Of a stretch of DNA of 64,000 nt, positions 13,955 through 39,749 are shown in pieces; within the stretch, counting starts at the first letter, position 1; the number at the start of each line of letters is the position of its first letter. Source of the DNA: Gammaproteobacteria bacterium (lineage in GTDB: Bacteria > Pseudomonadota > Gammaproteobacteria > Poriferisulfidales > Poriferisulfidaceae); NCBI GenBank assembly GCA_028819565.1, contig JAPPLD010000020.1, positions 32,099-96,098 on the forward strand, written 5' to 3'. A program made the translations under genes and the position numbers. The notes under the pieces were generated by a model. The model was not told the origin of the DNA. It was given only the letters and a program-made list of their open reading frames with translations, and did no database searches.

Positions 13955-13955
13955 C

Positions 13956-15099: not shown

Positions 15100-16497
15100 A
15101 TGGCCCGCAAGCCGAAAATCGTCATTGTCGGAGGGGGAACCTCTGGTTTGGCTGCGGCATACACTTTACGCAGCAAATACGGAAGCAAGTTGGAAGTCGT
15201 TGTGCTGGAGGCAGCTGATCGCGCTGGAGGTCGCATTGCAGGGGAAGAAATTGGTGGTTTCTCCATCCATACCGGTGCATCAGTTTTCCACGAATCGTTT
15301 GAAACGGTTCAGGACTTGGCCGAAAGCCTCGGTGTCCCCTTGAAGATGAGTCCCCGCAAAAAAGGGGGGCACATCTACCGCGATGGGAAACTTTGGGGCA
15401 TCTATTCGAACGGTTCACTGAAACAGATGATGACAACCGTCCAGACCATCCTTTCTTTCCGGTTGTTAACGCCGAAAGCAATGTGGCAGTCCATGCGATT
15501 CTTTGGAATGCTGAAAGCCCGGGGCAACGACATTGACTTTCAGGACCACTCGAGAATGCTGGACCTGGACACCCCCGAAAGCTTTGCCGAATTCATGAAA
15601 GCGAATTCCCTGGTTGAATATCTGGAGCAGACCGGAGAAGTCGACATTAACTGCTTTACGGCGGGTTGTTCTGAAGAGGTCGGTGCCGCCCTTGGGATGG
15701 CGATGCTTTGGCTTTGGACCCTGAACCAATCCGAACGCTCATGCCTGCCCGGAAAAGGTGTCGGAGAATTTGCCGACGCGCTTGTAGGTGCATGTGCAGA
15801 AGACACCCGGCTCGGCACACCCGTCCAGCGTGTCGTGGTTGAGGAAGGGTGCGTGAAGGGTGTCATGGCAGGTAACGTGGGGAATGGCGACGGCTTTGTT
15901 GAGGCGGATGCGGTCATTTGTGCCGCTCCGGCCACGAAGGCACTTGAAATTATTCCCGACCTTCCTCCCGAGGCCAGACGCATCCTGAGCCGAGTCACGT
16001 ATTCTTCCTGCATCAACATGGCCATCGGGCTTGACGCGAATATCCTTCCCGAGGGTTCTCATGCCGCTGTGTTTCCCCCGGAATCCGGAACTTTTCTGAC
16101 CAACGTCAGCAACTTGGCCTCGATGGCGCCTCAGGCGGCGCCGGAGGGCAAGTCCCTGGTGTATGCGCTGGTGATTGGCGAACATGCCAGGGAACTCTTC
16201 GCCTTGAGCGACGACGAGATCGCAGGTCGGATAATCGAAGAAATCAGCAAGTATCTGCCGACCATGCCCGAAAAGCCCCTGTTCGCTCGCGTCTATCGCT
16301 GGCCCGAGGCGTTGTGTCTAGCCCCCGGCGGGATGCTGAAGGAGATCTACGAGATGCGCCAGCAGAAACTAGTTGACCTGGAAGGCCTGTTTCTTGCGGG
16401 TGACTACATGCGGATGCCTTCATGCAACGGCGCCCTGCTGAGCGGGGTGGACGCCGCCGGGGAATGCGCCTCTTTCGTCTCTCGGGACACGGTCTGA
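15100..16497 (+). CDS. FAD-dependent oxidoreductase (amine oxidase / protoporphyrinogen oxidase-like family)
   Basis: 465 aa. N-terminal dinucleotide-binding motif KIVIVGGGTSGLAAAY...VLEAADRAGGRI. Lower GC than the flanks, preceded by a 230-bp AT-rich spacer. Confidence 0.6.
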   Translation: MARKPKIVIVGGGTSGLAAAYTLRSKYGSKLEVVVLEAADRAGGRIAGEEIGGFSIHTGASVFHESFETVQDLAESLGVPLKMSPRKKGGHIYRDGKLWGIYSNGSLKQMMTTVQTILSFRLLTPKAMWQSMRFFGMLKARGNDIDFQDHSRMLDLDTPESFAEFMKANSLVEYLEQTGEVDINCFTAGCSEEVGAALGMAMLWLWTLNQSERSCLPGKGVGEFADALVGACAEDTRLGTPVQRVVVEEGCVKGVMAGNVGNGDGFVEADAVICAAPATKALEIIPDLPPEARRILSRVTYSSCINMAIGLDANILPEGSHAAVFPPESGTFLTNVSNLASMAPQAAPEGKSLVYALVIGEHARELFALSDDEIAGRIIEEISKYLPTMPEKPLFARVYRWPEALCLAPGGMLKEIYEMRQQKLVDLEGLFLAGDYMRMPSCNGALLSGVDAAGECASFVSRDTV

Positions 16498-23022: not shown

Positions 23023-23191
23023 GTCGGGTCATTCACCTTTTGTTCAGGGAAAAACCAGAGAATCTGGCATTTCGTACAGCCATTGTACTGGATGTTTTTC
23101 CATCAGCCAACTGGTCGGCTGAAATATTTGTGATAGATTAGCCTCAAAAGAGTCGTGTCCCCACGATTGTCAGAATTACTTAGGAGGAGCC

Positions 23192-24334: not shown

Positions 24335-24363
24335 GAGGTCTGAAAACCCTAACCATATAAAAG

Positions 24364-24396
24364 AACGCCCCCTTTCGAGGGGGCGTTTCTTTTTTG
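24364..24396 (+). terminator. rho-independent terminator after the AlkB-like gene
   Basis: AACGCCCCC-TTTCGA-GGGGGCGTT hairpin followed by TCTTTTTT. Confidence 0.7.
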
Positions 24397-24423
24397 AGGC
24401 AAGCCCTCCGTACAATAAGGGTC

Positions 24424-25122: not shown

Positions 25123-25141
25123 TTCCAACCGGTACGGGGTC

Positions 25142-26389: not shown

Positions 26390-27523
26390 ATGACTACGGT
26401 GCCCTTGGACATGGCAGTCATCGGCGCTGGGCCAGCTGGAAGTGTCTGCGCCTATAGCGCGCTTGCCATGTCCACGAAAATACAAGTAGCGCTTGTAGAC
26501 GGGGAAACCTTCCCGCGCGACAAGTCCTGCGGCGATGGGGTCCGGTGTGATGCCGTGTCCATACTGAGAAAGCTTGGCCTAGGGACCATCTTCGATGGGA
26601 AGCCGGTAATCCGGCAGTTGGAGCATACAAGCCCCCCTGGCTTTAAATGTCCGGAAATATCCTTGACAGACGGCGAAGTTGATCCCATGGATGAAATCGG
26701 GTATTACATCGTCGAACGCAAAATCTTTGATCACCATTTGTATGAAGCGGCAATAACTCAAGGGGCAAAAGACTATACGGGGTGCAGGCTGACAGATGCC
26801 AAATTTGATGAATCACAGAAGTTCTGGAATCTGATTTTGCAGGAACGGTCTGGAGCGAGGACCGCGATCCGGAGCCGGGTCTTAATCGGTGCAGACGGCG
26901 CAGGGTCGCGAGTTCGACGGATTGCGGGGTTGAGCCTCAACGGACAGCAGCACAAAGCGGTTGGTCTTCGCGCATATGCGCGAACCGAAGATCTGGCGGA
27001 GAACATCATGCGTGTTGATTTCACCAAGAGCCTGATTCCCGGATATGGATGGGTGTTCCCGCTGGGGGGAGGCAAAGTCAATATAGGAGTAAGCCTTGAT
27101 GCGCGTGATTACAGAAGTTGTGGCAGGAGCCTGGTCTCCTATCTGGACGAGTACATGGGGTATCTAAGCGGCCAGGATGTGGCGATTCAAGACTTGAGCG
27201 GCATCAAATCTCATTCATTGCCGCTAGCGTCGATGTCTCCGCCTCTCGTTCCAAGGCGGCAACTGGCGCTGATCGGTGATGCGGCGGCGATGATCAACCC
27301 ATTCACCGGAGAAGGAATCCACTACGGAATTTGGGCAGGGCACTCGCTGGGAACGGCTATCGGCAAAAATGTGAGCCAGAAAAAATCCGTACAAGCTGCT
27401 TTGGAAGGCTACGCTAGATCATACGCAGAACGATTCGAGGAGACCATGAAGCAGTATGAGAACCTGCGTAAGTGGCTAAGATTCCTGAGATTCCTGGCCA
27501 ACCCGGCCGAGGCGCGGTCTTGA
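26390..27523 (+). CDS. geranylgeranyl-reductase-family FAD-dependent oxidoreductase
   Basis: 377 aa. N-terminal AVIGAGPAGSVCAY...VALVDGETFPRDKSCGDGV matches the GG-reductase family (FAD-binding GxGxxG plus a conserved Cys after the DG motif). Lower GC. First gene of the low-GC RiPP island. Confidence 0.6.
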   Translation: MTTVPLDMAVIGAGPAGSVCAYSALAMSTKIQVALVDGETFPRDKSCGDGVRCDAVSILRKLGLGTIFDGKPVIRQLEHTSPPGFKCPEISLTDGEVDPMDEIGYYIVERKIFDHHLYEAAITQGAKDYTGCRLTDAKFDESQKFWNLILQERSGARTAIRSRVLIGADGAGSRVRRIAGLSLNGQQHKAVGLRAYARTEDLAENIMRVDFTKSLIPGYGWVFPLGGGKVNIGVSLDARDYRSCGRSLVSYLDEYMGYLSGQDVAIQDLSGIKSHSLPLASMSPPLVPRRQLALIGDAAAMINPFTGEGIHYGIWAGHSLGTAIGKNVSQKKSVQAALEGYARSYAERFEETMKQYENLRKWLRFLRFLANPAEARS

Positions 27524-27701
27524 CGGAAAAAGTGCCGGTGGCCCCTGTGGTTCGAGGGCCTGCCTAATCCGACCGTTCCTCTATTGCCGATGCTTTCGAG
27601 TCCGCCGTAGGTCCTCGGCTCTCACTTGACACGACTGTCGCGCCGTGGACAATTCCTGCTATGTCGTCGCCGGATTAATCCTGGCAAGCGAGGAGGGTGT
27701 T

Positions 27702-30119
27702 ATGGCGGAAGGCAGGGCAGAGACAGAGGGCTTGGAGATTGCGGCAGAAAAGGCGATGGAACCCTCGTTCGGGAATGCCTTGCTGTATTTCCAGTCTCTC
27801 GCGGTTTTCCCCCTTATTGTTTGCGCTGCCATGTACGGTGGTTGGTGGATCGCGGGCCCGATCCTCTTCATTATCCTTGTTGAAAGTCTCGATGGCGCCT
27901 TTGGAGAGGAAGAGCGCAACATGGATCCGGACCGGACGTCCGCAAACCAATTGCACTGGTACGAATTGAGCCTCTGGTTATGGGCGATTCTCTGGCCCGC
28001 GACACTGGTGTTCTCGCTCTGGCAGATTCTTGTTGTTGGGCATCTATCCGTTTGGGAAATTGTGCTGATGGCGTCGGTATTGGTGAATGTCGGCCAGGCG
28101 GTCTTCATCATCGGCCATGAACTGGTTCATCGGCAGGCTGCCTGGGAACGCTGGTTTGGTGAGTTTCTGCTCGCCTCCTCTTCCTACCCGCATTACGCCA
28201 CTGAGCACATCTACGTTCATCACGCCCTCGCCTGCACGCCCATGGATTCCGGGACCGCCCCCAAGGGAGTGAGCTTCTGGCAACTCCTTCCGGGAGATTT
28301 GAAGGACAGCTTGGTCAAATCTTGGCGCTTCGCACGCAACCGGTTAGCCCGTCGGCGCCTGCCCGTCTGGCACTACACGAATCCGTTCTGGCGATACGCC
28401 ATTGGAGTCGCGGTGTGGTATTCGCTGGTTTATTGGATGGGTGGGCCGTGGGCATTGTTGATCTTCATCGCTCTTTGCTTCAGCGCAATCCTTTCGATGA
28501 AGATCATCAATTATGTCCAGCACTATGGGCTGCAGCGGGTTCTCTTGCCGAGCGGTCGGCACGAGAAAGTTCGGCCGCGGCATTCTTGGACTGCTTCCAG
28601 CAGGTTCACGAACTGGCTTTTCTATAACATGGAGCGCCATGCCGACCACCACCTCGAGGCAACCCGGCATTATCCGCTGTTGCAGCATTACGGCGAGGAC
28701 GAATCACCGAAATTGCCGGGAAGTTACCTCAAGATGGCAGGCCTCGCCATGTTTCCCCGCAAATGGTTCCGAACCATGGACCCATTGGTCGATCGCTGGC
28801 GCGCGAAATTCTATCCGCAGATCGAGGACTGGCGCACTTATGAAAGCCGGGCGTACGCCGCGTACCCGGGCGCATTCGAGGCAATCAGTGAAATCCTTGG
28901 CGCTGCGCCTCTCCTCGCCGAGTGGATTAACCACTCCCCAGAACTGCTCACGAATCTTCAGGACAGGGAGTTCACTGACCTTGACCTGCCGGATGGTTTT
29001 GGGCCGGACCCGGAATCCGAGAGAGTGGCCCGCAGCGGTCTTGTGCGCCTCTACTGGACGCGCGAGTTTGGGGTCTCCGAAATGGAAGAGCAGATTACGG
29101 AAGTCCCGTTCCAAGGGACTCGCGAGGCGGTGGAGATCGCCCGGCACTGGTCAAATGACAAGACGTTTCAGGTTGGCATGCATATTATGCGCGGCAACCT
29201 GTCGCCGGTCGAGGCAGGAACAGCGTTGTCCAATATCGCCGAAGCCTCGGTTTCTGCCTTGCTGCTGGCAGTCCAGAAAGTCCTTTCCAACCGCCACGTT
29301 TGGCAGGCCGGGGATGGCGTGGCAGTGGTGGCTTTGGGAGACCTCGCCAGCAGGGAAGTGGTGCCTGGGACCGAATTGCGTCTTATGATTGCCCATGGCA
29401 GCGGCAGTGCTCCCGGAGCCCATCACGAAGTGATTTGCCGCCGCTTCCTTGATGCGCTTCATTCGCTGTCGCGCAACCACCTGCTTTTCACATCAGCCCC
29501 GGGCGGGGGAGACGATAATGCCGTTCATTCCCTCACCGATTTCACGGAACTCTATCAGGCTGCCGGTTCGGTCAGGGAACTGTTAGACCTGGCTCGGGCA
29601 CGGTGTGTTTTCGAAACTGGCGACCCAGATATCGGGGAGCGATTTGCTGAAGCAAGACGCGAGATCCTGGCCTCCGACCCGACTTCGCAACGCATGATCG
29701 CCGAACTTCGCGGAATCACCGAAGGCACGGCCGACCCTGGCCTGTCCTCAATCGACGATATGCGGGGAGGTCGCCGAGACGTCGAACGCGCCGCCCGATT
29801 CTTGCAACTGACCCACGCGAATGACACTCCGGACATTCTGGTTCCCGATGCGGTCTCCATCTTCCGAACCGCAGGTGCCGGTGGCTTGATTTCGGCCGAG
29901 GTTGCAGCGCGGTTGGTGGAGGCCACGGAGATGTGGCAGAACTTGCGAGGCATACTGCGGCTGGCTATGGAAGACGATCTTCCAGTCGAAGCGGCAAGCG
30001 CGGAGGCTAAGGACATGATCGCCAGATCCTGCGGGCTGGACGATTTTGACGAGTTGACTGCCGCGATTCGTGAAACGGCTTCCCGTGCCGCTGCTGATAT
30101 TGAAGAAGTAATGACGTAA
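27702..30119 (+). CDS. fusion protein: N-terminal AlkB-like membrane di-iron hydroxylase domain plus C-terminal GlnE/GlnD-like nucleotidyltransferase-type domain (catalytic acidic pair degenerate)
   Basis: Strong RBS GAGGAGGG before ATG 27702 within ORF 27645..30119. N-terminal ~390 aa have TM helices and His boxes HELVHRQ, EHIYVHH, NYVQHYGL, ERHADHH. C-terminal ~430 aa resemble GlnE adenylyl-removase NT plus helical domains, but GAVVALGDLASREVVPGTELRLMIAHGSG replaces the G(S)x9-13DxD motif. Confidence 0.55.
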   Translation: MAEGRAETEGLEIAAEKAMEPSFGNALLYFQSLAVFPLIVCAAMYGGWWIAGPILFIILVESLDGAFGEEERNMDPDRTSANQLHWYELSLWLWAILWPATLVFSLWQILVVGHLSVWEIVLMASVLVNVGQAVFIIGHELVHRQAAWERWFGEFLLASSSYPHYATEHIYVHHALACTPMDSGTAPKGVSFWQLLPGDLKDSLVKSWRFARNRLARRRLPVWHYTNPFWRYAIGVAVWYSLVYWMGGPWALLIFIALCFSAILSMKIINYVQHYGLQRVLLPSGRHEKVRPRHSWTASSRFTNWLFYNMERHADHHLEATRHYPLLQHYGEDESPKLPGSYLKMAGLAMFPRKWFRTMDPLVDRWRAKFYPQIEDWRTYESRAYAAYPGAFEAISEILGAAPLLAEWINHSPELLTNLQDREFTDLDLPDGFGPDPESERVARSGLVRLYWTREFGVSEMEEQITEVPFQGTREAVEIARHWSNDKTFQVGMHIMRGNLSPVEAGTALSNIAEASVSALLLAVQKVLSNRHVWQAGDGVAVVALGDLASREVVPGTELRLMIAHGSGSAPGAHHEVICRRFLDALHSLSRNHLLFTSAPGGGDDNAVHSLTDFTELYQAAGSVRELLDLARARCVFETGDPDIGERFAEARREILASDPTSQRMIAELRGITEGTADPGLSSIDDMRGGRRDVERAARFLQLTHANDTPDILVPDAVSIFRTAGAGGLISAEVAARLVEATEMWQNLRGILRLAMEDDLPVEAASAEAKDMIARSCGLDDFDELTAAIRETASRAAADIEEVMT

Positions 30120-30196: not shown

Positions 30197-32539
30197 ATGA
30201 GTCATAACACGCAGGAAGACGCAGAGTCGCACCAAAAGTTGAATCGCGGAATCCTGCGCAAGGTGGATGCCGCCGACCTCGGCGTGATCGAAATGCCGGC
30301 ATTGACGCCGCATCTTGAGTTTCGAGAGATTGGTGATGGACAGGTGCTTCTGGTCTCCGAACTGTTCAATACGCTGCTTCGCGGGTCAATCCATTCCGAT
30401 CTTCTGCCTCTTCTCGACGGTTCGCGTTCGCACCATGACATTGTGGCCGCTCTTTCCGGTACTTATTCGGAATCCAATATTCGGACGGCATTGGCAGCCC
30501 TTGCCTCAAGAGGCTATGTCGTCTCGGGTGATTATGCCTTGGAGCGAGAATCGGCGGCGTTCTGGTCTTCGTTGGGCGCTTCTCCCCGGTGGGCCGAAAA
30601 ACGCTTGGCAGCCTCGAAAATTTCGATGACCGGTGACGAGGGCAATATTGCCCGTCGGCTTGATGCCGCGGGCGTGACCATAGATGCGGATGGCCCGACC
30701 CTCTCCGTGGTGGTGTGCAAGGACTACCTTGAGCAGATGCATGAGGACATAAACCGGCGCCACATTGAGTCCGGCGTGCCGTGGATGCTGGTCAGGCCGA
30801 AGGGCATCCACCCTTTGTTCGGGCCGATTTTCCGGCCGGCGGAGCAGGGGCCGTGCTGGGCCTGTCTCGCCTATCGTCTTCGCGGCCACCAGGAAGTGCA
30901 CAATTTCCTGCGAAATTTCGCTGGTGCAGATGCCGCGTTTCTTCCTGGTGCCGCTGACCCCACCGTTCTGGATGCGATATACGGCCTTGCCGCGACTGAA
31001 ATCGCGAAATGGCTGGTTTTGGAAGAAATGGCGCCACTTCATGCACAGGCAATCTCGATCGATACCATTCGCCTGAAAAGCGAACACCATCAGGTTATGC
31101 GTCGCCCGCAGTGCTTCACATGTGGCGATGAGAGGCTGTACCGCGCTGACCGGCCACCGGAGCCGGTGCGGCTGAAGCCAAGCCCGAAAGACATCTGCAA
31201 CAGTGGTGGCGTGCGCTCAGTACCTCCAGAAAAGACTCTGGCCAAGTATCAGCGCCTGATCAGCCCCGTCAGCGGGGTCGTGTCGTGGGTTGCGCGTACT
31301 ACGGAGGAGACGGACCCATGGCTGCATGTCTATTGGGCGGGGAGCAATTTCGCACTGAGAAGCAGCGAACTGAATTCGTTGCGGCGGAGCCTGCGTAGCA
31401 AGAGCGCGGGCAAGGGAAGCACGCCGCGGCAGTCTGAAGCAAGTGCGCTTTGTGAGGCGATAGAACGCTACTCCGGGGCCTTTCATGGCGATGAGATTCG
31501 TTGTCGAAGACGTCTTGCGGATTTTCTCAAAGCCGGAGAATCCGAGGCGATCCATCCAAATGACGTTCAACTGTTCAGCGACCAGCAATTGAATAATGCC
31601 GAGCAACTCAATGCGCGCGGTCATCCTTACAATTTTGTCCCGGCGCGGTTCGACCCAGATGCAGAGGTGGATTGGTCGCCTGTGTGGTCGCTTACGCAGG
31701 GTCGGCATCGATACCTGCCGACATCTATGCTCTATGGAATGCTCGATGAACAACGAGGGAATTCAGGTCTCAAGGCGGATTCGAATGGCTGTGCTGCGGG
31801 CAACACGCTTGAGGAAGCCATCCTGCAAGGGTTCTTGGAATTGATCGAACGTGATGCTTTCGCTGTTTGGTGGTACAACCGACTTCGCTTGCCTGGAGTG
31901 GACCTGGAAAGCTTTGGAGACGATTATCTTGCATCCGCGCAGAATTACTACGGCGGTTTCAATCGTGAAATGTGGGTGTTGGATGTCACCCATGATTTCG
32001 GCATACCTACTTTTGTTGCCGTCTCGCGCCGGACTGACGAGGGAGAGGAAGACATTATCTACGGGGCCGGGGCGCACCTGGACCCACACATTGCAGCCTT
32101 ACGTGCGGTGTGCGAACTGAACCAGTTTTTGAACTGGGCCCAAGGGTCGGAGCGGGGGGGGTGCGGCCATGATGTTGACGAGCCATTGTGCCGATGGTGG
32201 TGGAAGAACGGGAAACTCGGGGATCATCCCTACTTGATGCCAGCGTCTGACGTCTCGTTACGCGGCAAGTCTGATTACCCCATCCCTGACACTGCGGATG
32301 TCAGAGAGGATGTGGAGCGATGCCGTGCACTGGTCGAAGCCAAAGGCTTGGAGTTCTTGGTTCTGGATCAGACGCGGCCAGACATCGGCATGCCGGTTGC
32401 AAGGGTCATCGTGCCCGGCTTGCGCCATTTCTGGGAACGTTTCGCGCCTGGGCGCCTGTTTGACGTGCCGGTCGAAATGGAATGGCGCGAAAGTCCTGTT
32501 GAGGAAACGGATCTCAATCCCATCCCGGTCATCGCCTGA
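30197..32539 (+). CDS. PatD/TruD-like azoline-forming cyclodehydratase (fused E1-like/RRE N-terminus plus YcaO domain)
   Basis: ORF 30185..32539 (TTG), with the likely start at ATG 30197. YcaO hallmark motifs GKGSTPRQSEASALCEAIERYSG and GCAAGNTLEEAILQGFLELIERDAFAVWWYN. About 780 aa, matching fused heterocyclases of cyanobactin/TOMM pathways. C-terminal PxPxP-like tail. Confidence 0.8.
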   Translation: MSHNTQEDAESHQKLNRGILRKVDAADLGVIEMPALTPHLEFREIGDGQVLLVSELFNTLLRGSIHSDLLPLLDGSRSHHDIVAALSGTYSESNIRTALAALASRGYVVSGDYALERESAAFWSSLGASPRWAEKRLAASKISMTGDEGNIARRLDAAGVTIDADGPTLSVVVCKDYLEQMHEDINRRHIESGVPWMLVRPKGIHPLFGPIFRPAEQGPCWACLAYRLRGHQEVHNFLRNFAGADAAFLPGAADPTVLDAIYGLAATEIAKWLVLEEMAPLHAQAISIDTIRLKSEHHQVMRRPQCFTCGDERLYRADRPPEPVRLKPSPKDICNSGGVRSVPPEKTLAKYQRLISPVSGVVSWVARTTEETDPWLHVYWAGSNFALRSSELNSLRRSLRSKSAGKGSTPRQSEASALCEAIERYSGAFHGDEIRCRRRLADFLKAGESEAIHPNDVQLFSDQQLNNAEQLNARGHPYNFVPARFDPDAEVDWSPVWSLTQGRHRYLPTSMLYGMLDEQRGNSGLKADSNGCAAGNTLEEAILQGFLELIERDAFAVWWYNRLRLPGVDLESFGDDYLASAQNYYGGFNREMWVLDVTHDFGIPTFVAVSRRTDEGEEDIIYGAGAHLDPHIAALRAVCELNQFLNWAQGSERGGCGHDVDEPLCRWWWKNGKLGDHPYLMPASDVSLRGKSDYPIPDTADVREDVERCRALVEAKGLEFLVLDQTRPDIGMPVARVIVPGLRHFWERFAPGRLFDVPVEMEWRESPVEETDLNPIPVIA

Positions 32540-32590: not shown

Positions 32591-33475
32591 CTATTCTTCG
32601 GACTTCTGGCCTGGCTTTGTGCCGGACAAGAAGTGGTAAGTGAACGCGCCTGCCTGCAGGCCTTTGTCAAAGTCGAGGGCGGCCCCCATGAATTCATGGT
32701 AGGCCAGATCCGGTCCCGGAGGAGGAGGGGTCAGAAATCCGAACCATGACCAGAATTTTCGGGTCATTTCTGTAGATGGGGCCACCTCTGCTGACAGATT
32801 TTTTTCCTGCACTTCGCGGAATCCCGCTTTTTCCAGGGCCACGCGCGCGTCGGACCACGTCACCAATGGGGGCATGCGAAAGCCCCACTGCATACTGGCG
32901 TGAACAGCCTCATGGGCTTCGGACAGGGGAACTCCGCTCAGCAAGCCTTCCAAAGCCTGCCAGCGACCGCCTGGCCTCAGAATTCGGTAGACACCCTGTA
33001 AGTAGGCATGTTTGTCGGGTGCGTAGCAGAATGATTCATGGTTCAACACTGCATCGAAACAAGCGTCGGGAAAGGGCATATCCATGAAATCGCCATGGTG
33101 GAACTCAACCAAGCCGCCGACTCCGCGCTGTTCCGCGAGTTCTGTCGCAACCGCGACATGGGATTCGCAATTAGTCAAACCGATGGCTTGGACTTTGTAC
33201 GTTTCCGCCAACCAGATCACCATTCCCCCGACGCCGCAGCCGGAGTCGAGGATCCGTTGCCCCGGCTTGAGATTGCATTCCTGTGTCAACGTCTGATTGG
33301 CGCGCAGTAGGGATTCGTAGTGGGATTTCGTGTCCGACCCCCAAAGCCCGAAATGGCAGGTAAGGAGGTCGCCTCCGCCGTATTTCACAATGGGGTCTGT
33401 CAACGCTTCATAATGAGCAGGAACAGAAGTTTCTTGTTCTTGGTCGCTTTTCGGAATTTGTTGCGGATTCGTCAT
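32591..33475 (-). CDS. class I SAM-dependent methyltransferase
   Basis: 294 aa. SAM-binding motif I RILDSGCGVGG, plus the acidic residue after beta-2 and motif post-I. Convergent with the cyclodehydratase gene. Confidence 0.75.
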   Translation of the reverse strand: MTNPQQIPKSDQEQETSVPAHYEALTDPIVKYGGGDLLTCHFGLWGSDTKSHYESLLRANQTLTQECNLKPGQRILDSGCGVGGMVIWLAETYKVQAIGLTNCESHVAVATELAEQRGVGGLVEFHHGDFMDMPFPDACFDAVLNHESFCYAPDKHAYLQGVYRILRPGGRWQALEGLLSGVPLSEAHEAVHASMQWGFRMPPLVTWSDARVALEKAGFREVQEKNLSAEVAPSTEMTRKFWSWFGFLTPPPPGPDLAYHEFMGAALDFDKGLQAGAFTYHFLSGTKPGQKSEE

Positions 33476-34596
33476 GGTAGCGCAGTTTAGGGCATCTATT
33501 GCAGTTTGGATAGTTTTGGGTCGCCATTTCTTTCTTTCCCTTTTAGGTGGCAGGTTTCAGGATCAGAACCAGTAATTGGGATTTTCCCACGACTGAGATG
33601 GTCACCATCATCTCAACCCCAACGGGCGTAGGATTGCCACCAGGCCCAGGCCCAGGTGTCACATCCGCAGGAGCGACGATTTCAGGCGGTGCGTCTTTCG
33701 CTTCGGGCGCAAGAACTTATGGGTCCACGGGGACGGGAATTATGATACCGCCGAGCAACGAATCCCATAATATATCTGTCCAATTCAGGCACATGGGTAC
33801 TCACAGAGGTAAGGCGCACTTCGCCGTCGAAGCCGACACGGCGAATCGATACTCTGCTGTCTGCAGAGGCTGCGGGCATTTTACTATCGGAGCATTTGTT
33901 AGTGGCGTAGTAGGCACCACGTGCTAAGCGGTGGCCGACAGGCCAGTCATTTGCCCGCCGCCGGGTGTAATGCCAGCGGTCGTTGATCGGAACCGACAGC
34001 GGCCTCCCCCATCGTCGCCTTGGATTCCGAGCCGGGGTTCAGCACTGCCGGCGCAATAGGCTGGAGAACCCGATTGCCCGGACCCCGGATCAAGCCCGGG
34101 GCAGGCGGCTTCGCTGCGGCAGTCTCCGCGACCCAACTTCAACAGTGGGTCTCAAGGGTATTCAATCACACAGGGGGTTACGCCGCGTTGCCGAGTGCAT
34201 CCATTGCATTTTTCTCACCCTGCGCCAACCCGGACGCCACGATCCAATGGTTTCAACAACTTGACGAAACCGGAGCCGGCAAGAATCGATGCCTACGGTT
34301 GGAGTCGGGTCTGGGTGGACACCAGCGTCATCGACGGCCGGGACGGGCACGGGTCATGCTCAAACCGAGCGGTTCCAAACCGTTCTCCCGGATGCGGTGG
34401 ATTGCTCATCGCCATGTTGCCATTCCTGCCGGTGGGGGTCGATCAGGTCAACTTGTTTCGTGAATTTCCCCGGAATTAGGCATGCTCGATGCTACACTGT
34501 AAAAATAAAAATTGGCATCGCCTCGAATCCAGCCATCAACAGCGTGGGCAAGCCATGTGCATCACTGGAGTTAATCCTTTCACTTGAGTCGTCGCT

Positions 34597-35706
34597 GTGA
34601 GTCTCGAAGAACAATGGGTCGCGACTGAAGACCGCCTTCTTCATGAAACGGAATCCCTGGGTGGGCTGCTTGGGCAATTAAGGGATCGTGTCTCTTCCGG
34701 TTTGATTGGTGACGAGGAGTGGGGGAAGATACTGGAACGTGCCCGCGGATTGCCTGTCACAATGGGTGCTTTTCCTTTCGGCTTCGAATTGCTCATGCAC
34801 GAATCACGGCCGGGGGCGGATTTCGGCGCGTCGCTGGTCGGGGGAAGCCAATCGGCGGCGTTCTTTGAGAAAAGGAGTAAAACGAAAGATGCGGACCCGG
34901 CTACTGCTGGAGTGGCTTGGTTGCTAAAGGAAACGGAACCAGAGAGCGCCCCCCTCCGACGCATCGCTGGCCGAAAGATGCTGCTCGAATATGATGTCGA
35001 TCAAATACCGTCTGGAGAATTTCCGGATCCCGGCATTTTTCTGTATCCTGCCGATCAGGTGTTGGCTGGCGATGGTTCCGATCAGCGCCTTCATGAACTA
35101 AGGATCGTGGCCGACGCGGTGGCTTCTGCGACGAACCGCAGGTTGAACGAAGCTGAGCACCGACAGATAGACCAGGTATTCTTGGCGATGAACCCGAATA
35201 CGAGTGTTCGGGCCGTTGGCGCTTTCCCGTCGCGAGCAAGGGAAATTCGATTGACGGCGACGGGATTCAGGAAGGCGGATGAGGTCGGGGAATTCCTGAA
35301 ACGCACGAACTGGCCTGGACAGCATTCTGCTGTGACTTCCACCGTGTCGCACTTGGAAGAACGCGAGGCTTTCGCCTATGTTGGAATCCACTACGATGTT
35401 GCGGAAAACGGTGTAGGCCCGACGCTCGGACTGAGTTTTTTCGCCAAGGAAGGGCAGTGGCTTAAAGATGTCCGACACTGGACTCCATTGATTGACAGCA
35501 TCCGCGAGGAACAACTCGCTGTTCCAGAGAAACTGTCGGAATTGGTCGCTTGGTCGTCGGGGTCGGAACCCTTATCCGGCAAGTCCGGTTCGTTTGTGCT
35601 GGTGCGCGGCATTCACCACATCAAATTTACACTGGTCGACGACCGGGTCGAGCAGGTCAAAGCATATATTTTTCTTCTTTTACTGGCATGGCCGTTGACC
35701 GGTTGA
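34597..35706 (+). CDS. hypothetical protein (RiPP-cluster associated, GTG start)
   Basis: 369 aa ORF with balanced composition and no recognisable motif. Sits between the modification genes and the RND exporter. Confidence 0.4.
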   Translation: MSLEEQWVATEDRLLHETESLGGLLGQLRDRVSSGLIGDEEWGKILERARGLPVTMGAFPFGFELLMHESRPGADFGASLVGGSQSAAFFEKRSKTKDADPATAGVAWLLKETEPESAPLRRIAGRKMLLEYDVDQIPSGEFPDPGIFLYPADQVLAGDGSDQRLHELRIVADAVASATNRRLNEAEHRQIDQVFLAMNPNTSVRAVGAFPSRAREIRLTATGFRKADEVGEFLKRTNWPGQHSAVTSTVSHLEEREAFAYVGIHYDVAENGVGPTLGLSFFAKEGQWLKDVRHWTPLIDSIREEQLAVPEKLSELVAWSSGSEPLSGKSGSFVLVRGIHHIKFTLVDDRVEQVKAYIFLLLLAWPLTG

Positions 35707-35755: not shown

Positions 35756-38098
35756 TTACGCCGGAATTGTTTTGCGCGATTTGGTGCGCTGGCCCAAAGT
35801 TATCAGCAAGGAGGGCAGCAGCAGCAGATCGGCAATCAGCGCGAGCACGATGATCAACGCGGTAAGCAATCCCACCTGGACAGTCGGGATGAATGGAGAA
35901 AGGACCAGGATTAGGAAACCTGCCGCCAGCACGGTCGACGTCGTGAACAATGCCCGCCCGACTGCCTGGAAAGCGTAACGCACCGCATCCTCGGCCGTAG
36001 AGTTGTACTCACGGCGTGCCCGGCAGTATTTGCTGAGAAAGTGCACCGAGTCATCCACCACAATTCCGATGGTCATCGCCATAACGACCGACAGCACAAG
36101 CCCGACTTCTCCTACTGCCAGTCCCCAGATTCCAAATCCCATTGCGCCGGGAACGAGATTTGGCACGAGGCTTACGAGACCAAGCCGTAGTGAGCGAAGG
36201 GCGGCGATGAGGAGCATGGAAATGCCGAAAAGCGCGAGCGTCGTTCCGAGCAACATGGCCTTGATGTTGCGTAGCCCGATGTGTGCGAACATTAATGCGG
36301 CTCCTGCGCCTTCGGCTTGAGTGAAGTGGGGCGCATGGTCGTCCAGCCATGCCGCGGCACGCTCGTTCAGTTCCACGACCTCCCGCGAAGAGAGCGTTCT
36401 CGTCGTCACCGTCATGCGGGTGGCTGACCTGGAAACATCAATCTGGTTATTGAGGTCGAGGCCAAGAGGGAGCGAGAGTTCATAAAGGAGCAAGTATTGC
36501 GAGGCGAGGTCGCGGCTGGCGGGTAGCCGATAGGCGGCAGGGTCGTCTCCGTGCATGCTCTTGTTGAGTTGCTGGAAAGTGTCGCTAAGTACCGTGACGT
36601 GACGTGTTTCCGGTTGTACGCGATACCAGGCGGCGAAAGCTGCGAGATTTTCGAGAAAGGCAGGTTCGGAGATCCCGCCCGGCCCAGATGAGACCACCGA
36701 ATATTCAAGCACGGTGTTTCCGCTGAGATGCTCATCCATAAAATCTATATCTCGACGAAACTCCACGCTCTCATCGAAGAAATACACCAAAACATCATTC
36801 AGCTCATTGCGGGGGATGGCTGCGACCAGCATCAGGACCACTGCGACCGAACCCCACAGCAAATGCTTCCGGTGACGCACCACAAATTCCGCAATGACTG
36901 CCATAACCGGATCGGCGTCCTGTCGGATTCTTGGCGCACGGACCGGAAGGAGTGAAAGCAGGGCGGGCAGAAACGTCACCGTGAGCACAAACGAAGCGCC
37001 GACCCCAAATGCGACGAACATTCCGAGGTGACGGTATGGAGGGACTTCAGAGAAATTCATGCTCAGGAACCCAAGTGCCGTCGTTAGGCTCGCGAGGAAG
37101 ACCGGATACAGGTTGATGTTGAGGGATTCGACAATCGCGACGTGTTTCGAGTCTCCAGCCCGCAAGCGTTGCAACAAAGTGACCAGCAGGTGTATGCAAC
37201 TGGCAACAGCGATCATCAGCACGATAGTGGGTGCCGGAGCGGTCGGTGGCGTGAACGGAAGGCCAACCCAGCCCCCCAGCCCCATTGCCACGAGAACCGA
37301 AAAGATGATGATCAAGCCCGTTGCCACGACTCCCGTAAATCCCCGGATCAGGATGCCGAGCGTCAATGCCATGATGGCCAGGCTCGCGGGCAGGAAAGTT
37401 TTCTGGCCGTCTATCGTTGCCCTTGAGAGGGTGTCGTTGATTATCACTGTGCCAACCAGACGGAGATCAATGCCGGGAAAATTTTCTTCCGCTTCGACAG
37501 CAAGGTCATGCGCGAATTTGGCAACTTCGGAGACCTCGGCCGATTCGTCTTCTTCAGAAAGTTTTATGGTGACGCTGACCGCACTCACGCCTCCATCCCG
37601 GGCCACGAGATTCCCAACGAGTCGGGGTTCGGCCAATGCCGTTTCGCGGATCCAGGATCGTTCTTGGACATTATCCAGCTGCAGCGGATTCACGAGATTG
37701 CGCACAACCAAATCGTCGCCGTCGGCGGCGGTATGCTGGAAGTTTGCAATTGAATCGACTCGTGTCGAATACGGTGTTTGCCAGGCGCGGTCGGTAAGCC
37801 AGACTATGGCCGCGAGAGATTGCTCTGATGCGAAATCACGATTTTCCGGAACCACCAGGAAGACGACGTTGTCGTTTTTCCCGTAGGTATTTTCTAGTGC
37901 TTCAAACGCCAAGAGTTGAGGATTGTCCTCATCGAAGAACATACGATAACTTGTAGAGGTCTGAAGAAACATGCTGCCGCTAGCGGCGAGCATGACCAGG
38001 ACCAAAGAGATGATGATGATCGGCCAGCGGGTCGCGATCACCCACTCCCCGAATCGCATTCCAAAAGATTTGGGAGTGCGGGGAGGCTTGCTCGTCAT
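35756..38098 (-). CDS. RND-superfamily exporter (MMPL/HpnN-like, two 6-TM bundles)
   Basis: 780 aa. Two hydrophobic blocks, each after a large periplasmic loop, typical of the COG1033 predicted exporters. Directly downstream, on the same strand, of the NHLP precursor gene. Confidence 0.75.
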   Translation of the reverse strand: MTSKPPRTPKSFGMRFGEWVIATRWPIIIISLVLVMLAASGSMFLQTSTSYRMFFDEDNPQLLAFEALENTYGKNDNVVFLVVPENRDFASEQSLAAIVWLTDRAWQTPYSTRVDSIANFQHTAADGDDLVVRNLVNPLQLDNVQERSWIRETALAEPRLVGNLVARDGGVSAVSVTIKLSEEDESAEVSEVAKFAHDLAVEAEENFPGIDLRLVGTVIINDTLSRATIDGQKTFLPASLAIMALTLGILIRGFTGVVATGLIIIFSVLVAMGLGGWVGLPFTPPTAPAPTIVLMIAVASCIHLLVTLLQRLRAGDSKHVAIVESLNINLYPVFLASLTTALGFLSMNFSEVPPYRHLGMFVAFGVGASFVLTVTFLPALLSLLPVRAPRIRQDADPVMAVIAEFVVRHRKHLLWGSVAVVLMLVAAIPRNELNDVLVYFFDESVEFRRDIDFMDEHLSGNTVLEYSVVSSGPGGISEPAFLENLAAFAAWYRVQPETRHVTVLSDTFQQLNKSMHGDDPAAYRLPASRDLASQYLLLYELSLPLGLDLNNQIDVSRSATRMTVTTRTLSSREVVELNERAAAWLDDHAPHFTQAEGAGAALMFAHIGLRNIKAMLLGTTLALFGISMLLIAALRSLRLGLVSLVPNLVPGAMGFGIWGLAVGEVGLVLSVVMAMTIGIVVDDSVHFLSKYCRARREYNSTAEDAVRYAFQAVGRALFTTSTVLAAGFLILVLSPFIPTVQVGLLTALIIVLALIADLLLLPSLLITLGQRTKSRKTIPA

Positions 38099-38270: not shown

Positions 38271-38546
38271 TTAGGTACAGCAGCAAAGACCCGCAGCAAT
38301 TGTCTCAAGTTGCTCTTCATCCAGGTCCGGACCTGCCGGCAGGGCAAGATGGAGCGTGGTCATGCTGCTTTCATGTACTACGATTTCAAAGCCTTCCGGA
38401 ACCTCAACGCCGAATTCTTCCGCGATGACGCCTTTAGGGTCGGCTAGCAACCGTTGACGAAAACCAGTGTCTTCACACGCTTTATCCGTCAGGTGCTGAC
38501 GCATTTCCTCGGCCCGTTGCTGGGCCGTTTCGACAAATTCTCCCAT
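38271..38546 (-). CDS. RiPP precursor peptide with nitrile-hydratase-like leader peptide (NHLP family), AG cleavage motif and 5-residue core LCCCT
   Basis: 91 aa with RBS GAGGAGG seven nt before the ATG. Leader LLADPKGVIAEEFGVEVPEGFEIVVHESSMTTLHLALPAGPDLDEEQLETIAAG matches the NHLP consensus (LLANP..AL.EEGIE.PEG.EVKVVEDT..TLHLVLP.....LSDEELE.VAGG). The ORF ends ...IAAG-LCCCT-stop. Confidence 0.8.
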   Translation of the reverse strand: MGEFVETAQQRAEEMRQHLTDKACEDTGFRQRLLADPKGVIAEEFGVEVPEGFEIVVHESSMTTLHLALPAGPDLDEEQLETIAAGLCCCT

Positions 38547-38828: not shown

Positions 38829-39737
38829 ATGACCCTATATGGACAAGCATTGATGTTCAATAGTCTGTTTTTTGATGATGCTGCGGCCAGCAGGAACAAA
38901 CGCCATCAACTCGGCTATTTATTAAGGGTAGCGGCTCCTCACGAGCGCGTCATCCTGGCTGGCATCGGTGCGGTTTTGTTGGCGCTCCTCGTTTGGATAT
39001 TATTCGGCAGTGTTGTACGCAGCGTTACGGTCGACGGAGTCCTGCTGAAGCCAGGAATCCGCCATGAGGTTGTCTCGACCGAGCCGGGCCATTTGATGAA
39101 GTTTTTGGTGACCCTTGGAGACCAGATTGAAAAGGGGGGGGCGATTGCCCGTCAGACCGTACCGGAATTGGAGCGCGAGATTACCGCTTTACGTGACCAG
39201 ATTGAGATTCTGGAGGCGGGGGTGCGGCAGGTTGGTGGTGACGGCACGAACTCATTTCTAATCTCGGCCCAAGAAGCATTGCTGCAAATGGAAGCCCGGC
39301 GTATTGCGAAAGAAGTCATCGCCAGCCACATGAATGGCGAAATCATGGTTTTGGATGCTGCCCCGGGAGACTACTTGCCTGCTGGATCAGTTGTTGCCCA
39401 GCTTCGCGATCCGGAGGACAAGCCACTCCAAGCGGTGCTGCTAGTCGCTCCGCGTATGGCAAAACGTCTCCGTGCTGGCATGCAGACATCGGTCGAGGTT
39501 GTAATGTCGGACGGGGCAGTGCGTGAAGTGGATGGAGAAATTGTCGCTGTAACCTCTGGGCCGTTTCCGAATTGGCTTGCGGCGTTTCAGTCGGAGAGCG
39601 TGGATTACGCCTATCGCGTCGACATTACCCTTGACTCTGAATCGAAACTCGCTGTGCCGGACGGCACGCCATGCCACGTACGCATCTTGCTTGGTCGGCA
39701 TTCGCCTATCGCGCTGCTTAGCCTAGAGCAAATTTGA
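38829..39737 (+). CDS. HlyD-family secretion adaptor (NHLM bacteriocin-system secretion protein type)
   Basis: 302 aa. N-terminal TM helix LAGIGAVLLALLVWILFG. Coiled-coil region PELEREITALRDQIEILEAG. C-terminal beta-barrel-type region. Immediately upstream of a C39-peptidase ABC transporter. Confidence 0.7.
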   Translation: MTLYGQALMFNSLFFDDAAASRNKRHQLGYLLRVAAPHERVILAGIGAVLLALLVWILFGSVVRSVTVDGVLLKPGIRHEVVSTEPGHLMKFLVTLGDQIEKGGAIARQTVPELEREITALRDQIEILEAGVRQVGGDGTNSFLISAQEALLQMEARRIAKEVIASHMNGEIMVLDAAPGDYLPAGSVVAQLRDPEDKPLQAVLLVAPRMAKRLRAGMQTSVEVVMSDGAVREVDGEIVAVTSGPFPNWLAAFQSESVDYAYRVDITLDSESKLAVPDGTPCHVRILLGRHSPIALLSLEQI

Positions 39738-39749
39738 TGGCTATCCTGA

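What the first reader, a model, noticed from the sequence alone, without database searches (positions are those of the whole stretch)
30197..32539. Fused E1-YcaO heterocyclase with no cognate FMN dehydrogenase nearby
The 780-aa protein carries the two YcaO signature blocks and an N-terminal E1-like/RRE region, the PatD/TruD architecture. No SagB-type FMN-dependent azoline dehydrogenase is recognisable in the island. The only flavoproteins there are a GG-reductase-like enzyme (26390..27523) and, far outside the island, an amine-oxidase-like one. The product may therefore keep thiazolines rather than thiazoles, or oxidation may be carried out by a non-canonical enzyme.
Basis: partly seen in the sequence, partly recalled or inferred. 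Interest (0 to 1): 0.65.

Follow-up and report, generated by a model that had tools for sequence, protein, structure and literature searches.

The report
Sponge-symbiont srp thiazoline peptide cluster
The gene is a typical member of the published "srp" peptide gene clusters of sponge bacteria, whose enzyme is already known to make thiazoline rings without a partner oxidase. Its conserved, unstudied neighbours look like lipid and isoprenoid enzymes, which suggests the final product carries a lipid tail.

Summary
Window 30197-32539 (+) encodes a 780-aa fused RRE/E1-like/YcaO cyclodehydratase that aligns end to end with LynD and TruD. No SagB-type dehydrogenase was found anywhere in the 64-kb window.

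It is not an orphan curiosity. It is an orthologue of SrpC from the published "srp" (sponge-derived RiPP proteusin) clusters. The precursor (38271-38546, -) is an NHLP peptide ending ...EEQLETIAAG|LCCCT, a variant of the canonical LCCCW. Papers held here state that SrpC converts the three Cys to thiazolines. Of 64 related loci, only one (L009) has a SagB/ThcOx oxidase nearby. So "thiazolines are kept" is the supported reading and is already known.

What seems new lies in the conserved neighbours:
- The unannotated 369-aa gene (34597-35706), directly downstream of the YcaO in 53 of 64 loci, is predicted with high confidence to have the ABBA prenyltransferase fold.
- The "desaturase" (27645-30119) is an AlkB-type alkane hydroxylase fused to a GlnE-like module that is probably inactive.
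- The "far-away" amine-oxidase-like gene (15100-16497) recurs beside the YcaO in about 16 other loci.

Together with the GGR-like reductase and the HpnN-like MMPL pump, this suggests a lipidated (prenylated) thiazoline peptide. That reading is inferred, not shown.

The parts
30197..32539 (+). Fused RRE / E1-like / YcaO cyclodehydratase, orthologue of SrpC
   Evidence: PF02624 E 2.9e-96, TIGR03604 and TIGR03882 above their cut-offs, PF21084 winged helix. Aligns end to end with LynD, TruD and MusD. Homologues are 60-85% identical in 64 loci from many phyla of sponge-symbiont MAGs.
38271..38546 (-). NHLP (proteusin) precursor peptide, SrpE-like. Leader contains LDEEQL (an L(X)4L motif) and ends in AAG. 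Predicted core is LCCCT.
   Evidence: TIGR03793 73.1 bits against a cut-off of 50.9. GAGGAGG ribosome-binding site upstream of the ATG. Family cores are LCCCW, RCCC, LCCCT, LCCCL, LSCCL, LSCCA and others.
34597..35706 (+). Conserved 369-aa protein with no family annotation and a predicted ABBA (PT-barrel) prenyltransferase fold
   Evidence: No Pfam or NCBIfam hit for it or for 33 homologues. AF2 model has pLDDT 93.1 and pTM 0.91, with five alpha-alpha-beta-beta repeats. The top 50 Foldseek PDB hits are all ABBA prenyltransferases at probability 1.00. Present in 60 of 64 family loci and directly downstream of the YcaO in 53.
27645..30119 (+). Membrane AlkB-type alkane-1-monooxygenase-like domain (about aa 40-400) fused to a GlnE/DrrA-like nucleotidyltransferase-fold module (about aa 400-824)
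   Evidence: PF00487 and PF03710. 8f6t AlkB, E 5.4e-54 over aa 69-385, with the HELVH, EHIYVHH, NYVQHYGL and ERHADHH motifs. The histidines are invariant in 43 homologues. C-terminal model has pLDDT 86 and TM 0.71 to GlnE 1v4a. The catalytic dyad is E577/R579 here and variable in the family. Present in 45 of 64 loci.
26390..27523 (+). Geranylgeranyl-reductase-family flavoprotein, a rare accessory gene
   Evidence: TIGR02032 161.3 bits against a cut-off of 158.8; PF01494; PF22578. Homologues found in only 3 other family loci: L003, L019, L054.
32591..33475 (-). Class I SAM-dependent methyltransferase, a recurrent accessory gene
   Evidence: PF08241 E 4.3e-20. Homologues at 50-66% identity near the YcaO in about 8 family loci.
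33476..34596 (.). 1.1-kb unassigned spacer between the methyltransferase and the PT-like gene
   Evidence: Its ORFs have no family hit. No blastn or tblastx match to any related locus or elsewhere in the window. No Rfam family. No SagB signal.
35756..38098 (-). MMPL/RND (HAE3, HpnN-like) transporter, immediately downstream of the precursor gene on the same strand (possibly one operon)
   Evidence: PF03176 E 1.2e-23; TIGR00921; TIGR03480 HpnN-like below its cut-off. Present in about 19 of 64 loci.
38829..39737 (+). HlyD-like adaptor of the NHLP export system
   Evidence: TIGR03794 82 bits, below its cut-off; PF13437.
39750..41972 (+). NHLP-type export ABC transporter with a C39 leader peptidase domain
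   Evidence: TIGR03796 876.8 bits against a cut-off of 853.3; PF03412.
41956..44895 (+). Second NHLP export ABC transporter subunit (979 aa)
   Evidence: TIGR03797 670 bits, E 3.7e-201, slightly below its cut-off of 709.
15100..16497 (+). Amine-oxidase / HemY / HpnE / CrtI-superfamily flavoprotein, a displaced accessory gene of the family
   Evidence: PF01593 E 7.9e-46. NCBIfam hits to protoporphyrinogen oxidase, HpnE and CrtI, all below their cut-offs. Homologues at 32-58% identity within 10 kb of the YcaO in about 16 other family loci; in L007 and L008 it lies directly upstream of the AlkB-fusion gene.

Best explanation
The gene encodes the SrpC-type cyclodehydratase of a srp-family (sponge-derived proteusin) RiPP cluster.

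Proposed mechanism:
1. The N-terminal winged-helix/RRE and E1-like domains dock the NHLP leader of the 91-aa precursor, which carries the L(X)4L motif LDEEQL.
2. The YcaO domain uses ATP to cyclodehydrate the consecutive Cys residues of the very short core LCCCT to thiazolines.
3. There is no cognate FMN (SagB) dehydrogenase because this family as a whole works without one. Thiazolines are the product of this step.
4. The C39-ABC/ABC/HlyD trio cleaves after AAG and exports the peptide.

Shown here: domain architecture, orthology, precursor, transport genes, and absence of SagB in this window and in 63 of 64 related loci.
Taken from the literature: thiazoline formation by SrpC on SrpE.
Inferred: the conserved neighbours further convert the peptide into a lipidated product. 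Those neighbours are a protein with an ABBA prenyltransferase fold, an AlkB-type membrane hydroxylase, and in this genome a GGR-family reductase, a methyltransferase and a CrtI/HemY-like flavoprotein. The HpnN-like MMPL pump may handle the lipidated product. I put about 0.4 on this second part. The 0.8 confidence applies to the first part.
For: - Architecture and homology to LynD, TruD and MusD.
- 64 related loci at 53-80% identity, nearly all from sponge-symbiont MAGs of Gammaproteobacteria, Alphaproteobacteria, Nitrospirales, Gemmatimonadota, Acidobacteriota and others.
- Precursors with conserved ...EEQLE.I.AG + (L/R)(C/S)CC(x) tails.
- SrpI-like halogenase (about 83% identical to the L002 copy) occurs only with cores ending in Trp, as published.
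- The papers state that SrpC makes three thiazolines in -LCCCW, and that srp differs from the MprC/MprD YcaO/oxidase pair (PMC10286304, PMC10858898). srp precursors are highly transcribed across phyla (bioRxiv 10.1101/2023.06.09.544420). 'LCCC' clusters contain 'several genes of unknown function' (PMC11832590).
- No SagB in the window, with working positive controls.
- For lipidation: the PT-like fold and its near-obligate adjacency to the YcaO; AlkB homology; GGR family; HpnE/CrtI-like flavoprotein recurring in the family; HpnN-like MMPL.
- Distant PT-like relatives sit beside NHLP precursors without any YcaO, so they are peptide-directed partners in their own right.
Against: - The native srp product has not been isolated, as far as the held papers say ('azol(in)e-containing', 'ecological role elusive'). 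The final oxidation state in vivo is therefore unknown.
- Only 64 kb of this genome was visible, so a SagB gene in trans cannot be excluded.
- One family locus (L009) does carry a ThcOx/SagB oxidase next to the operon.
- The prenyltransferase assignment rests on predicted fold only: TM 0.4-0.55, 7-15% identity, no sequence-family hit. I saw no prenyl-diphosphate synthase gene in the clusters I examined.
- The core peptides of distant relatives (KSDG, KPDG) share no obvious common acceptor residue.
- I could not read the original srp paper (JACS 2021), so I do not know what it says about the neighbouring genes.
Confidence: 0.8

Rival explanations
1. Thiazolines are made by the YcaO but then oxidised to thiazoles by a non-canonical enzyme encoded with the cluster. 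The most plausible candidate is the HemY/CrtI-superfamily flavoprotein (15100-16497). Alternatives are the di-iron AlkB-like domain or the GGR-like flavoprotein.
For: The amine-oxidase-like gene recurs within 10 kb of the YcaO in about 16 family loci. It is the first gene of the operon in L007 and L008. Its superfamily carries out flavin-dependent dehydrogenations: protoporphyrinogen oxidase, phytoene desaturase. The AlkB-like domain is in 45 of 64 loci with all iron-binding histidines intact. The literature hedges with 'azole' (bioRxiv 10.1101/2023.06.09.544420).
Against: No member of these families is known, to my knowledge, to oxidise azolines. The flavoprotein is absent from about three quarters of the loci and lies 14 kb from the YcaO here. 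GGR-like genes are in only 4 loci. The one locus that evidently needs an oxidase uses a standard ThcOx/SagB (L009). The same enzymes fit a lipid-tail role at least as well.
Confidence: 0.15
2. A canonical SagB-type dehydrogenase exists but is encoded elsewhere in the genome and acts in trans, so the final product is a tri-thiazole.
For: Only 64 kb was inspected. TOMM components can be unlinked (Haft 2010, PMC2887384, gives examples of distant precursors). The closest non-srp relatives of this YcaO (Methylovirgula, Bradyrhizobium, Isosphaeraceae) have SagB immediately downstream.
Against: 63 of 64 family loci, with up to 10 kb on each side, lack SagB. The slot directly downstream of the YcaO is occupied by the PT-like gene instead. 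SrpC alone gave thiazolines, and the authors contrast srp with the MprC/MprD pair (PMC10286304).
Confidence: 0.05
3. The YcaO performs a different backbone chemistry on this precursor, such as thioamide or amidine formation, rather than azoline formation.
For: YcaO enzymes as a superfamily also make thioamides and amidines (established knowledge). TIGR03266 (McrA thioamidation YcaO) gives a sub-threshold hit.
Against: The full E1-like + RRE fusion is about 40% identical to the azoline-forming LynD and TruD over the whole length. TIGR03604 scores above its cut-off. There is no TfuA gene. The core is Cys-rich. The orthologue is reported to make thiazolines.
Confidence: 0.02

Closest known systems
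srp (sponge-derived RiPP proteusin) gene clusters: SrpE precursor, SrpC YcaO, SrpI brominase (Nguyen et al., JACS 2021; follow-ups PMC10286304, PMC10858898)
   Same: NHLP precursor with an L(X)4L motif, an AG/GG cleavage site and a 4-6-residue core containing CCC. The fused YcaO is 60-85% identical to loci that encode the canonical ...ITEEQLEAISAGLCCCW precursor together with an SrpI-like halogenase. The NHLP export trio is present. There is no azoline oxidase. Relatives come from sponge-symbiont MAGs of many phyla.
   Different: The core ends in Thr (LCCCT), not Trp, and there is no SrpI-type halogenase, so no bromination is expected. This genome adds a GGR-family reductase and a methyltransferase. 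The PT-like gene is separated from the YcaO by an inverted methyltransferase gene plus a 1.1-kb spacer.
Cyanobactin heterocyclases LynD / TruD / PatD / MusD
   Same: Same three-part architecture (RRE, E1-like, YcaO), alignable end to end (E 1e-156 to 1e-172). TruD-type pathways also leave thiazolines unoxidised because no oxidase domain is present. Cyanobactin pathways pair the heterocyclase with ABBA prenyltransferases (LynF, PagF, MusF).
   Different: About 40% identity only. The leader is an NHLP rather than a cyanobactin leader. There are no PatA/PatG proteases and no macrocyclisation. The PT-like protein has no detectable sequence similarity to the cyanobactin F-family.
MprC/MprD of Methylovulum psychrotolerans, and classical TOMM/LAP BCD synthetases
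   Same: An NHLP-directed YcaO cyclodehydratase with an RRE.
   Different: Those systems have a flavin-dependent azoline oxidase (MprD / SagB / McbC). This cluster and 63 of 64 relatives do not.
AlkB alkane 1-monooxygenase (Fontimonas thermophila 8f6t/8sbb) and GlnE glutamine-synthetase adenylyltransferase
   Same: The upstream gene keeps all AlkB histidine motifs and matches the AlkB structure sequence at E 5e-54. Its C-terminal half has the GlnE/DrrA fold (TM 0.71).
   Different: AlkB is normally stand-alone or fused to rubredoxin and sits in alkane-degradation operons. Here it is fused to a GlnE-like module whose catalytic carboxylate pair is incomplete (E577/R579), and it sits in a RiPP operon.

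Membership tests
Fused E1-like/YcaO azoline-forming cyclodehydratase (PatD/TruD/LynD type) | YcaO ATP-binding domain | tested here: met
   PF02624 E 2.9e-96 over the full profile (1-325); TIGR03604 276.8 bits, above the 219 cut-off.
Fused E1-like/YcaO azoline-forming cyclodehydratase (PatD/TruD/LynD type) | N-terminal E1-like domain fused to YcaO, with a winged-helix RRE for leader binding | tested here: met
   TIGR03882 aa 199-366, 132 bits, above the 36.9 cut-off; PF21084 aa 41-112, 28.1 bits, above the 24.1 cut-off. Collinear alignment with LynD aa 9-773.
Fused E1-like/YcaO azoline-forming cyclodehydratase (PatD/TruD/LynD type) | Proline-rich C-terminal tail of azoline-forming YcaOs | tested here: met
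   The C-terminus ...DLNPIPVIA aligns with ...QMNPTPM of LynD.
Fused E1-like/YcaO azoline-forming cyclodehydratase (PatD/TruD/LynD type) | ATP-dependent cyclodehydration of Cys/Ser/Thr (-18 Da per ring) | not testable with these tools
   Reported for the orthologue SrpC on SrpE (PMC10286304, PMC10858898). Not measured for this protein.
srp (sponge-derived RiPP proteusin) cluster | NHLP precursor with a conserved leader end and a short core containing LCCC | tested here: met
   TIGR03793 73 bits. The tail ...LDEEQLETIAAGLCCCT compares with family tails ...ITEEQLEAISAGLCCCW.
srp (sponge-derived RiPP proteusin) cluster | SrpC-type YcaO orthologous to those in LCCCW clusters | tested here: met
   62-64% identity over the full length to YcaOs of loci that carry LCCCW precursors plus an SrpI-like halogenase, for example L030-L033 and L045.
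srp (sponge-derived RiPP proteusin) cluster | SrpI flavin-dependent brominase and a C-terminal Trp | tested here: not met
   The core ends in Thr. blastp with the L002 SrpI-like halogenase found no hit in the window at E 1e-5. None of the non-Trp cores in the family has this halogenase within 10 kb.
srp (sponge-derived RiPP proteusin) cluster | NHLP-type export and cleavage system | tested here: met
   TIGR03796 876.8 bits, above the 853.3 cut-off. TIGR03797 670 bits and TIGR03794 82 bits are partial, sub-threshold matches.
Classical TOMM/LAP synthetase (cyclodehydratase + SagB dehydrogenase) | FMN-dependent SagB/McbC/ThcOx dehydrogenase encoded with the cyclodehydratase | tested here: not met
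   No PF00881 or TIGR03605 hit in any scanned ORF. The custom SagB profile and tblastn were negative over the whole window, with positive controls recovered.
ABBA (PT-barrel) aromatic prenyltransferases, for the 369-aa neighbour | Barrel of five alpha-alpha-beta-beta repeats | tested here: met
   AF2 pLDDT 93.1 with five aabb repeats. The top 50 Foldseek PDB hits are all ABBA prenyltransferases, E 5e-7 to 2e-4, probability 1.00.
ABBA (PT-barrel) aromatic prenyltransferases, for the 369-aa neighbour | Sequence membership in a known prenyltransferase family (PTase_Orf2, Trp_DMAT, cyanobactin F) | tested here: not met
   No Pfam, NCBIfam or PDB-sequence hit for the protein, its 33 homologues or 10 distant relatives.
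ABBA (PT-barrel) aromatic prenyltransferases, for the 369-aa neighbour | Ring of basic and Tyr residues inside the barrel that binds the prenyl diphosphate; prenyl transfer activity | tested here: inconclusive
   Conserved K127, R218, R337, K343, K355, Y132, Y357, H265, H340 and H341 lie on predicted beta-strands. No coordinates were available to confirm that they face the barrel. Activity was not testable.
AlkB alkane 1-monooxygenase, for the N-terminal half of 27645-30119 | Histidine motifs HEL.H., EH..GHH, NY.EHYGL and RH.DHH in a membrane domain | tested here: met
   HELVH(158-162), EHIYVHH(187-193), NYVQHYGL(288-295) and ERHADHH(330-336) align with 8f6t. The histidines are invariant in 43 homologues.
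GlnE/DrrA-type nucleotidyltransferase, for the C-terminal half of 27645-30119 | Catalytic G-x11-[DE]-x-[DE] motif | tested here: not met
   The fold matches (TM 0.71 to 1v4a). But the window protein has E577 and R579 at the two carboxylate positions, and both columns vary across the family.

The most novel reading that the evidence does not exclude
The srp peptides are transcribed across many bacterial phyla in sponges, and their products are still unknown. They may not be plain brominated thiazoline pentapeptides but lipopeptides.

In this reading:
- A previously unrecognised, sequence-dark family of ABBA-fold enzymes (1,514 representatives of 50%-identity clusters at E <= 1e-3) acts as a general NHLP-leader-guided prenyltransferase.
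- The attached isoprenoid is then tailored by an AlkB-type hydroxylase fused to a pseudo-GlnE module, and in some genomes by GGR-like and CrtI/HemY-like flavoproteins.
- The product is moved to the envelope by an HpnN-like MMPL pump.

A variant of this reading is that one of these redox enzymes is a new kind of azoline oxidase.
Probability: 0.35. Interest if true: 0.7.

Novelty: new member of a known kind. Interest (0 to 1): 0.35.

Why it matters
As written, the finding is explained. A YcaO without a dehydrogenase is normal for the srp family and for TruD-type cyanobactin pathways, and thiazoline retention is already published.

It still matters for three reasons. First, srp clusters are among the most widespread and most highly transcribed biosynthetic genes in sponge microbiomes. 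Second, they are shared at 60-85% protein identity across phyla. Third, according to the papers I could read, they have no isolated natural product and no known role.

The near-obligate partner of the YcaO has a prenyltransferase fold, and the other conserved partner is an alkane-hydroxylase homologue. This gives a concrete, testable prediction for the missing chemistry (a lipid tail) and for what to look for in sponge metabolomes. It also flags a large unannotated enzyme family that travels with NHLP precursors even where no YcaO is present.

Tried and rejected
- I tested whether the 369-aa gene is a diverged SagB or the amidohydrolase that follows the YcaO in cyanobacterial relatives. There was no BLASTP similarity, and the fold is an ABBA barrel instead.
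- I looked for anything in the 1.1-kb gap (33476-34596). There was no protein-family hit, no match to related loci or to the rest of the window, and no Rfam family. It stays unassigned.
- I tested whether the GGR-like flavoprotein is a diverged SrpI halogenase. There was no similarity at E 1e-5. It is present in only 3 other loci, so it is not a core enzyme.
- I tested whether FAdes1, DinB and MerR (22-26 kb) belong to the cluster. They are 82-96% identical in L003-L005, against 73-80% for the YcaO, and absent from other phyla. They are host backbone.
- The profile search against PDB sequences with the PT-like alignment gave only noise.
- The original srp paper (PMC8780398 / 10.1021/jacs.1c03474) and the mpr paper (PMC9746716) are not held. 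I could not check how the authors annotated the neighbouring genes.
- All-against-all clustering of locus ORFs was polluted by shadow ORFs. I used it only as a pointer.
Full report
1. What is at the coordinates

The ORF 30197-32539 (+) is 780 aa. The mechanical ORF begins at a TTG at 30185, but the identical 780-aa database protein and all homologues support the ATG at 30197. It matches:
- PF02624 YcaO over the whole profile (E 2.9e-96);
- TIGR03604, 276.8 bits against a cut-off of 219;
- TIGR03882, the E1-like 'leader peptide-binding' domain, at aa 199-366;
- a winged-helix domain at aa 41-112.

It aligns collinearly over aa 36-778 with the solved cyanobactin heterocyclases LynD (E 1.7e-172) and TruD (E 1.8e-166), and also matches MusD (E 1.1e-155). 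It ends in a proline-rich tail...NPIPVIA.

2. Is a dehydrogenase missing?

I scanned the long, plausible ORFs from about 18 to 50 kb with Pfam and the main island genes with NCBIfam. This included the three ORFs inside the 33.5-34.6 kb gap. None hits Nitroreductase (PF00881), ThcOx or TIGR03605.

To cover every frame, I took two annotated SagB genes that lie directly downstream of the nearest non-srp relatives of this YcaO. These are Methylovirgula at 43% identity and Bradyrhizobium at 36%. I built a profile from them and searched all stop-to-stop ORFs of at least 50 aa in the window and in all fetched loci with filters off.
- The profile recovered SagB genes in L061, L071 and L009 at E 1e-85 to 1e-89.
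- It found nothing in the window.
- A five-seed rebuild and tblastn gave the same result, with the best window E = 4 and nothing in the gap.

3. What the cluster is

The island contains the following genes.

| Coordinates | Strand | Product |
|---|---|---|
| 38271-38546 | - | 91-aa NHLP precursor, ...LDEEQLETIAAG\|LCCCT, with a good RBS |
| 38829-44895 | + | NHLP export trio: HlyD-like, C39-ABC, second ABC |
| 35756-38098 | - | MMPL pump |
| 32591-33475 | - | SAM methyltransferase |
| 26390-27523 | + | GGR-family flavoprotein |
| 27645-30119 | + | 824-aa 'desaturase-GlnE' fusion |
| 34597-35706 | + | 369-aa protein with no annotation |

Homologues of the YcaO are strikingly conserved. More than 120 database clusters are at least 68% identical. 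A scan of one genome per species returned 64 loci, nearly all from sponge-symbiont MAGs of many phyla: Ca. Porisulfidus, Nitrospirales, Ca. Palauibacter, Poriferihabitaceae, Rhodobacteraceae, Acidobacteriota and Longimicrobiales. Their precursors end in LCCCW, RCCC, LCCCT, LCCCL, LSCCL, LSCCA, LCCCG(L) and similar tails.

This is the published 'srp' family. The held papers say the following:
[quoted passage not shown] - 'LCCC' proteusin clusters contain 'several genes of unknown function' (PMC11832590).

In my loci the SrpI-like halogenase (about 83% identical between loci) occurs only with cores ending in Trp. The window's LCCCT cluster, like its closest relatives L003 and L004, has none.

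4. Consequence for the finding

A YcaO without SagB is the rule in this family. 63 of 64 loci lack it within up to 10 kb. The exception, L009, carries a genuine ThcOx/SagB oxidase (PF00881 + PF22767, TIGR03605 157 bits) plus a canonical Trp halogenase, both divergent from the operon. Thiazoline formation by the orthologue is experimental knowledge. What cannot be excluded is a SagB elsewhere in this genome, or a non-canonical oxidase.

5. The conserved partners (the less ordinary part)

(a) The 369-aa protein. It is present in 60 of 64 loci and lies directly downstream of the YcaO on the same strand in 53. In the window it is displaced by an inverted methyltransferase gene and a 1.1-kb spacer that matches nothing.
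- Neither it nor 33 homologues nor 10 distant relatives hit any Pfam model.
- An AlphaFold2 model from a 34-sequence alignment is confident (pLDDT 93.1, pTM 0.91) and shows five alpha-alpha-beta-beta repeats.
- In Foldseek against the PDB, all top 50 hits are ABBA prenyltransferases at probability 1.00, TM 0.4-0.55 and 7-15% identity. They include PriB, AmbP3, 5- and 6-DMATS, NphB, EpzP, FamD1, CymD, and the cyanobactin enzymes LimF and PirF.
- Conserved Lys, Arg, Tyr and His residues sit on the predicted strands. Without coordinates I could not show that they face the barrel.
- A profile search of 1.84 billion representatives finds 1,514 relatives at E <= 1e-3.
- Three distant ones that I could place lie next to NHLP precursors or NHLP exporters without any YcaO. 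Their cores are AGAENCEWGHDHHDEYHVPLGGP, KSDG and KPDG. The family therefore looks like a general NHLP-peptide partner.

(b) The 'desaturase'. It is an AlkB-type alkane 1-monooxygenase homologue (8f6t, E 5.4e-54) with all four AlkB histidine motifs, and the histidines are invariant in 43 homologues. Its C-terminal half folds like GlnE and DrrA (TM 0.71). However, the catalytic carboxylate pair is E577/R579 here and varies across the family, so that half is probably not an active nucleotidyltransferase. The fusion occurs in 45 of 64 loci.

(c) The amine-oxidase-like flavoprotein. It has homologues within 10 kb of the YcaO in about 16 other loci, and it is the first gene of the operon in two Nitrospirales genomes. 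It belongs to the HemY/HpnE/CrtI superfamily.

(d) Other accessories. The GGR-like gene is rare, with 3 other loci. The methyltransferase is in about 8 and the HpnN-like MMPL in about 19.

6. Most likely mechanism

Shown or published:
- leader-guided, ATP-dependent cyclodehydration of the Cys run to thiazolines;
- C39 cleavage after AAG and export.

Inferred, at about 0.4:
- the ABBA-fold protein attaches an isoprenoid, at an unknown site;
- the AlkB-like enzyme, and the flavoproteins where present, tailor that chain or possibly the heterocycles;
- the MMPL pump handles the lipidated product.

Five independent components with lipid or isoprenoid affinities make this pattern hard to ascribe to chance: the PT fold, AlkB, GGR, the HpnE/CrtI-like oxidase and the HpnN-like pump. 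Against it, there is no activity data, I saw no prenyl-diphosphate synthase gene in the clusters I examined, and I could not read the founding paper.

7. Verdict

Interest in the finding as stated is low. The conserved unannotated partners deserve follow-up.

Noticed in passing
window 15100-16497 (+); L007 6036-7439; L008 6024-7466; L021 5919-7436; L028 4482-6062 and others: The amine-oxidase/HemY/CrtI-like flavoprotein lies 14 kb from the YcaO in this window, next to an AbiEi/AbiEii toxin-antitoxin pair (13346-14864). It is a recurrent neighbour of the YcaO operon in about 16 other srp-family loci, mostly those with RCCC cores.
   Followed up: partly
L009 4415-7407 (-): One srp-family locus (a Pseudomonadales MAG) carries a genuine ThcOx/SagB azoline oxidase and a 667-aa canonical Trp halogenase, divergently transcribed from the AlkB-fusion/YcaO operon. 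At least one variant of the family therefore probably makes thiazoles. The contig ends before the precursor.
   Followed up: partly
L030 8661-9980 (+) and about 25 other loci of the LCCCW group: A protein of about 440 aa lies directly upstream of the YcaO. It starts with an NHLP-leader-like domain (TIGR03793 49.8 bits) and continues into a region weakly resembling the squalene-hopene cyclase C-terminal toroid. It looks like a leader-like domain fused to an enzyme-sized body. It is absent from this window.
   Followed up: no
L074 7464-9092; L075 2391-6367; L076 4876-7520: Distant relatives of the PT-like protein lie beside NHLP precursors in clusters with no YcaO. Those precursors have unrelated short cores: a 23-mer, and the tetrapeptides KSDG and KPDG. 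The clusters also carry a WelO5-like gene or P450 genes.
   Followed up: partly
window 33476-34596: A 1.1-kb stretch between the methyltransferase and the PT-like gene has no protein-family, RNA-family or DNA match to any related locus. In relatives the PT-like gene follows the YcaO directly.
   Followed up: yes
window 45023-45949 (+): A TraB/PrgY/GumN-family gene follows the second ABC transporter on the same strand, 128 nt downstream. It is absent from all 64 related loci. Members of this family are linked to peptide-pheromone shutdown in enterococci (my recollection), so a link to the exported peptide is conceivable but untested.
   Followed up: no
window 22066-26233: MerR, a second membrane desaturase (23192-24334), a 242-aa unknown and DinB are 82-96% identical in L003-L005, more conserved than the RiPP genes beside them (73-80%). 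They look like host backbone rather than part of the cluster.
   Followed up: partly
L014, L017, L020, L023, L034: Several loci carry two precursor genes, either identical RCCC copies or two different cores (for example MCCCGI + LCCCW, or LCCCI + RCCC).
   Followed up: no
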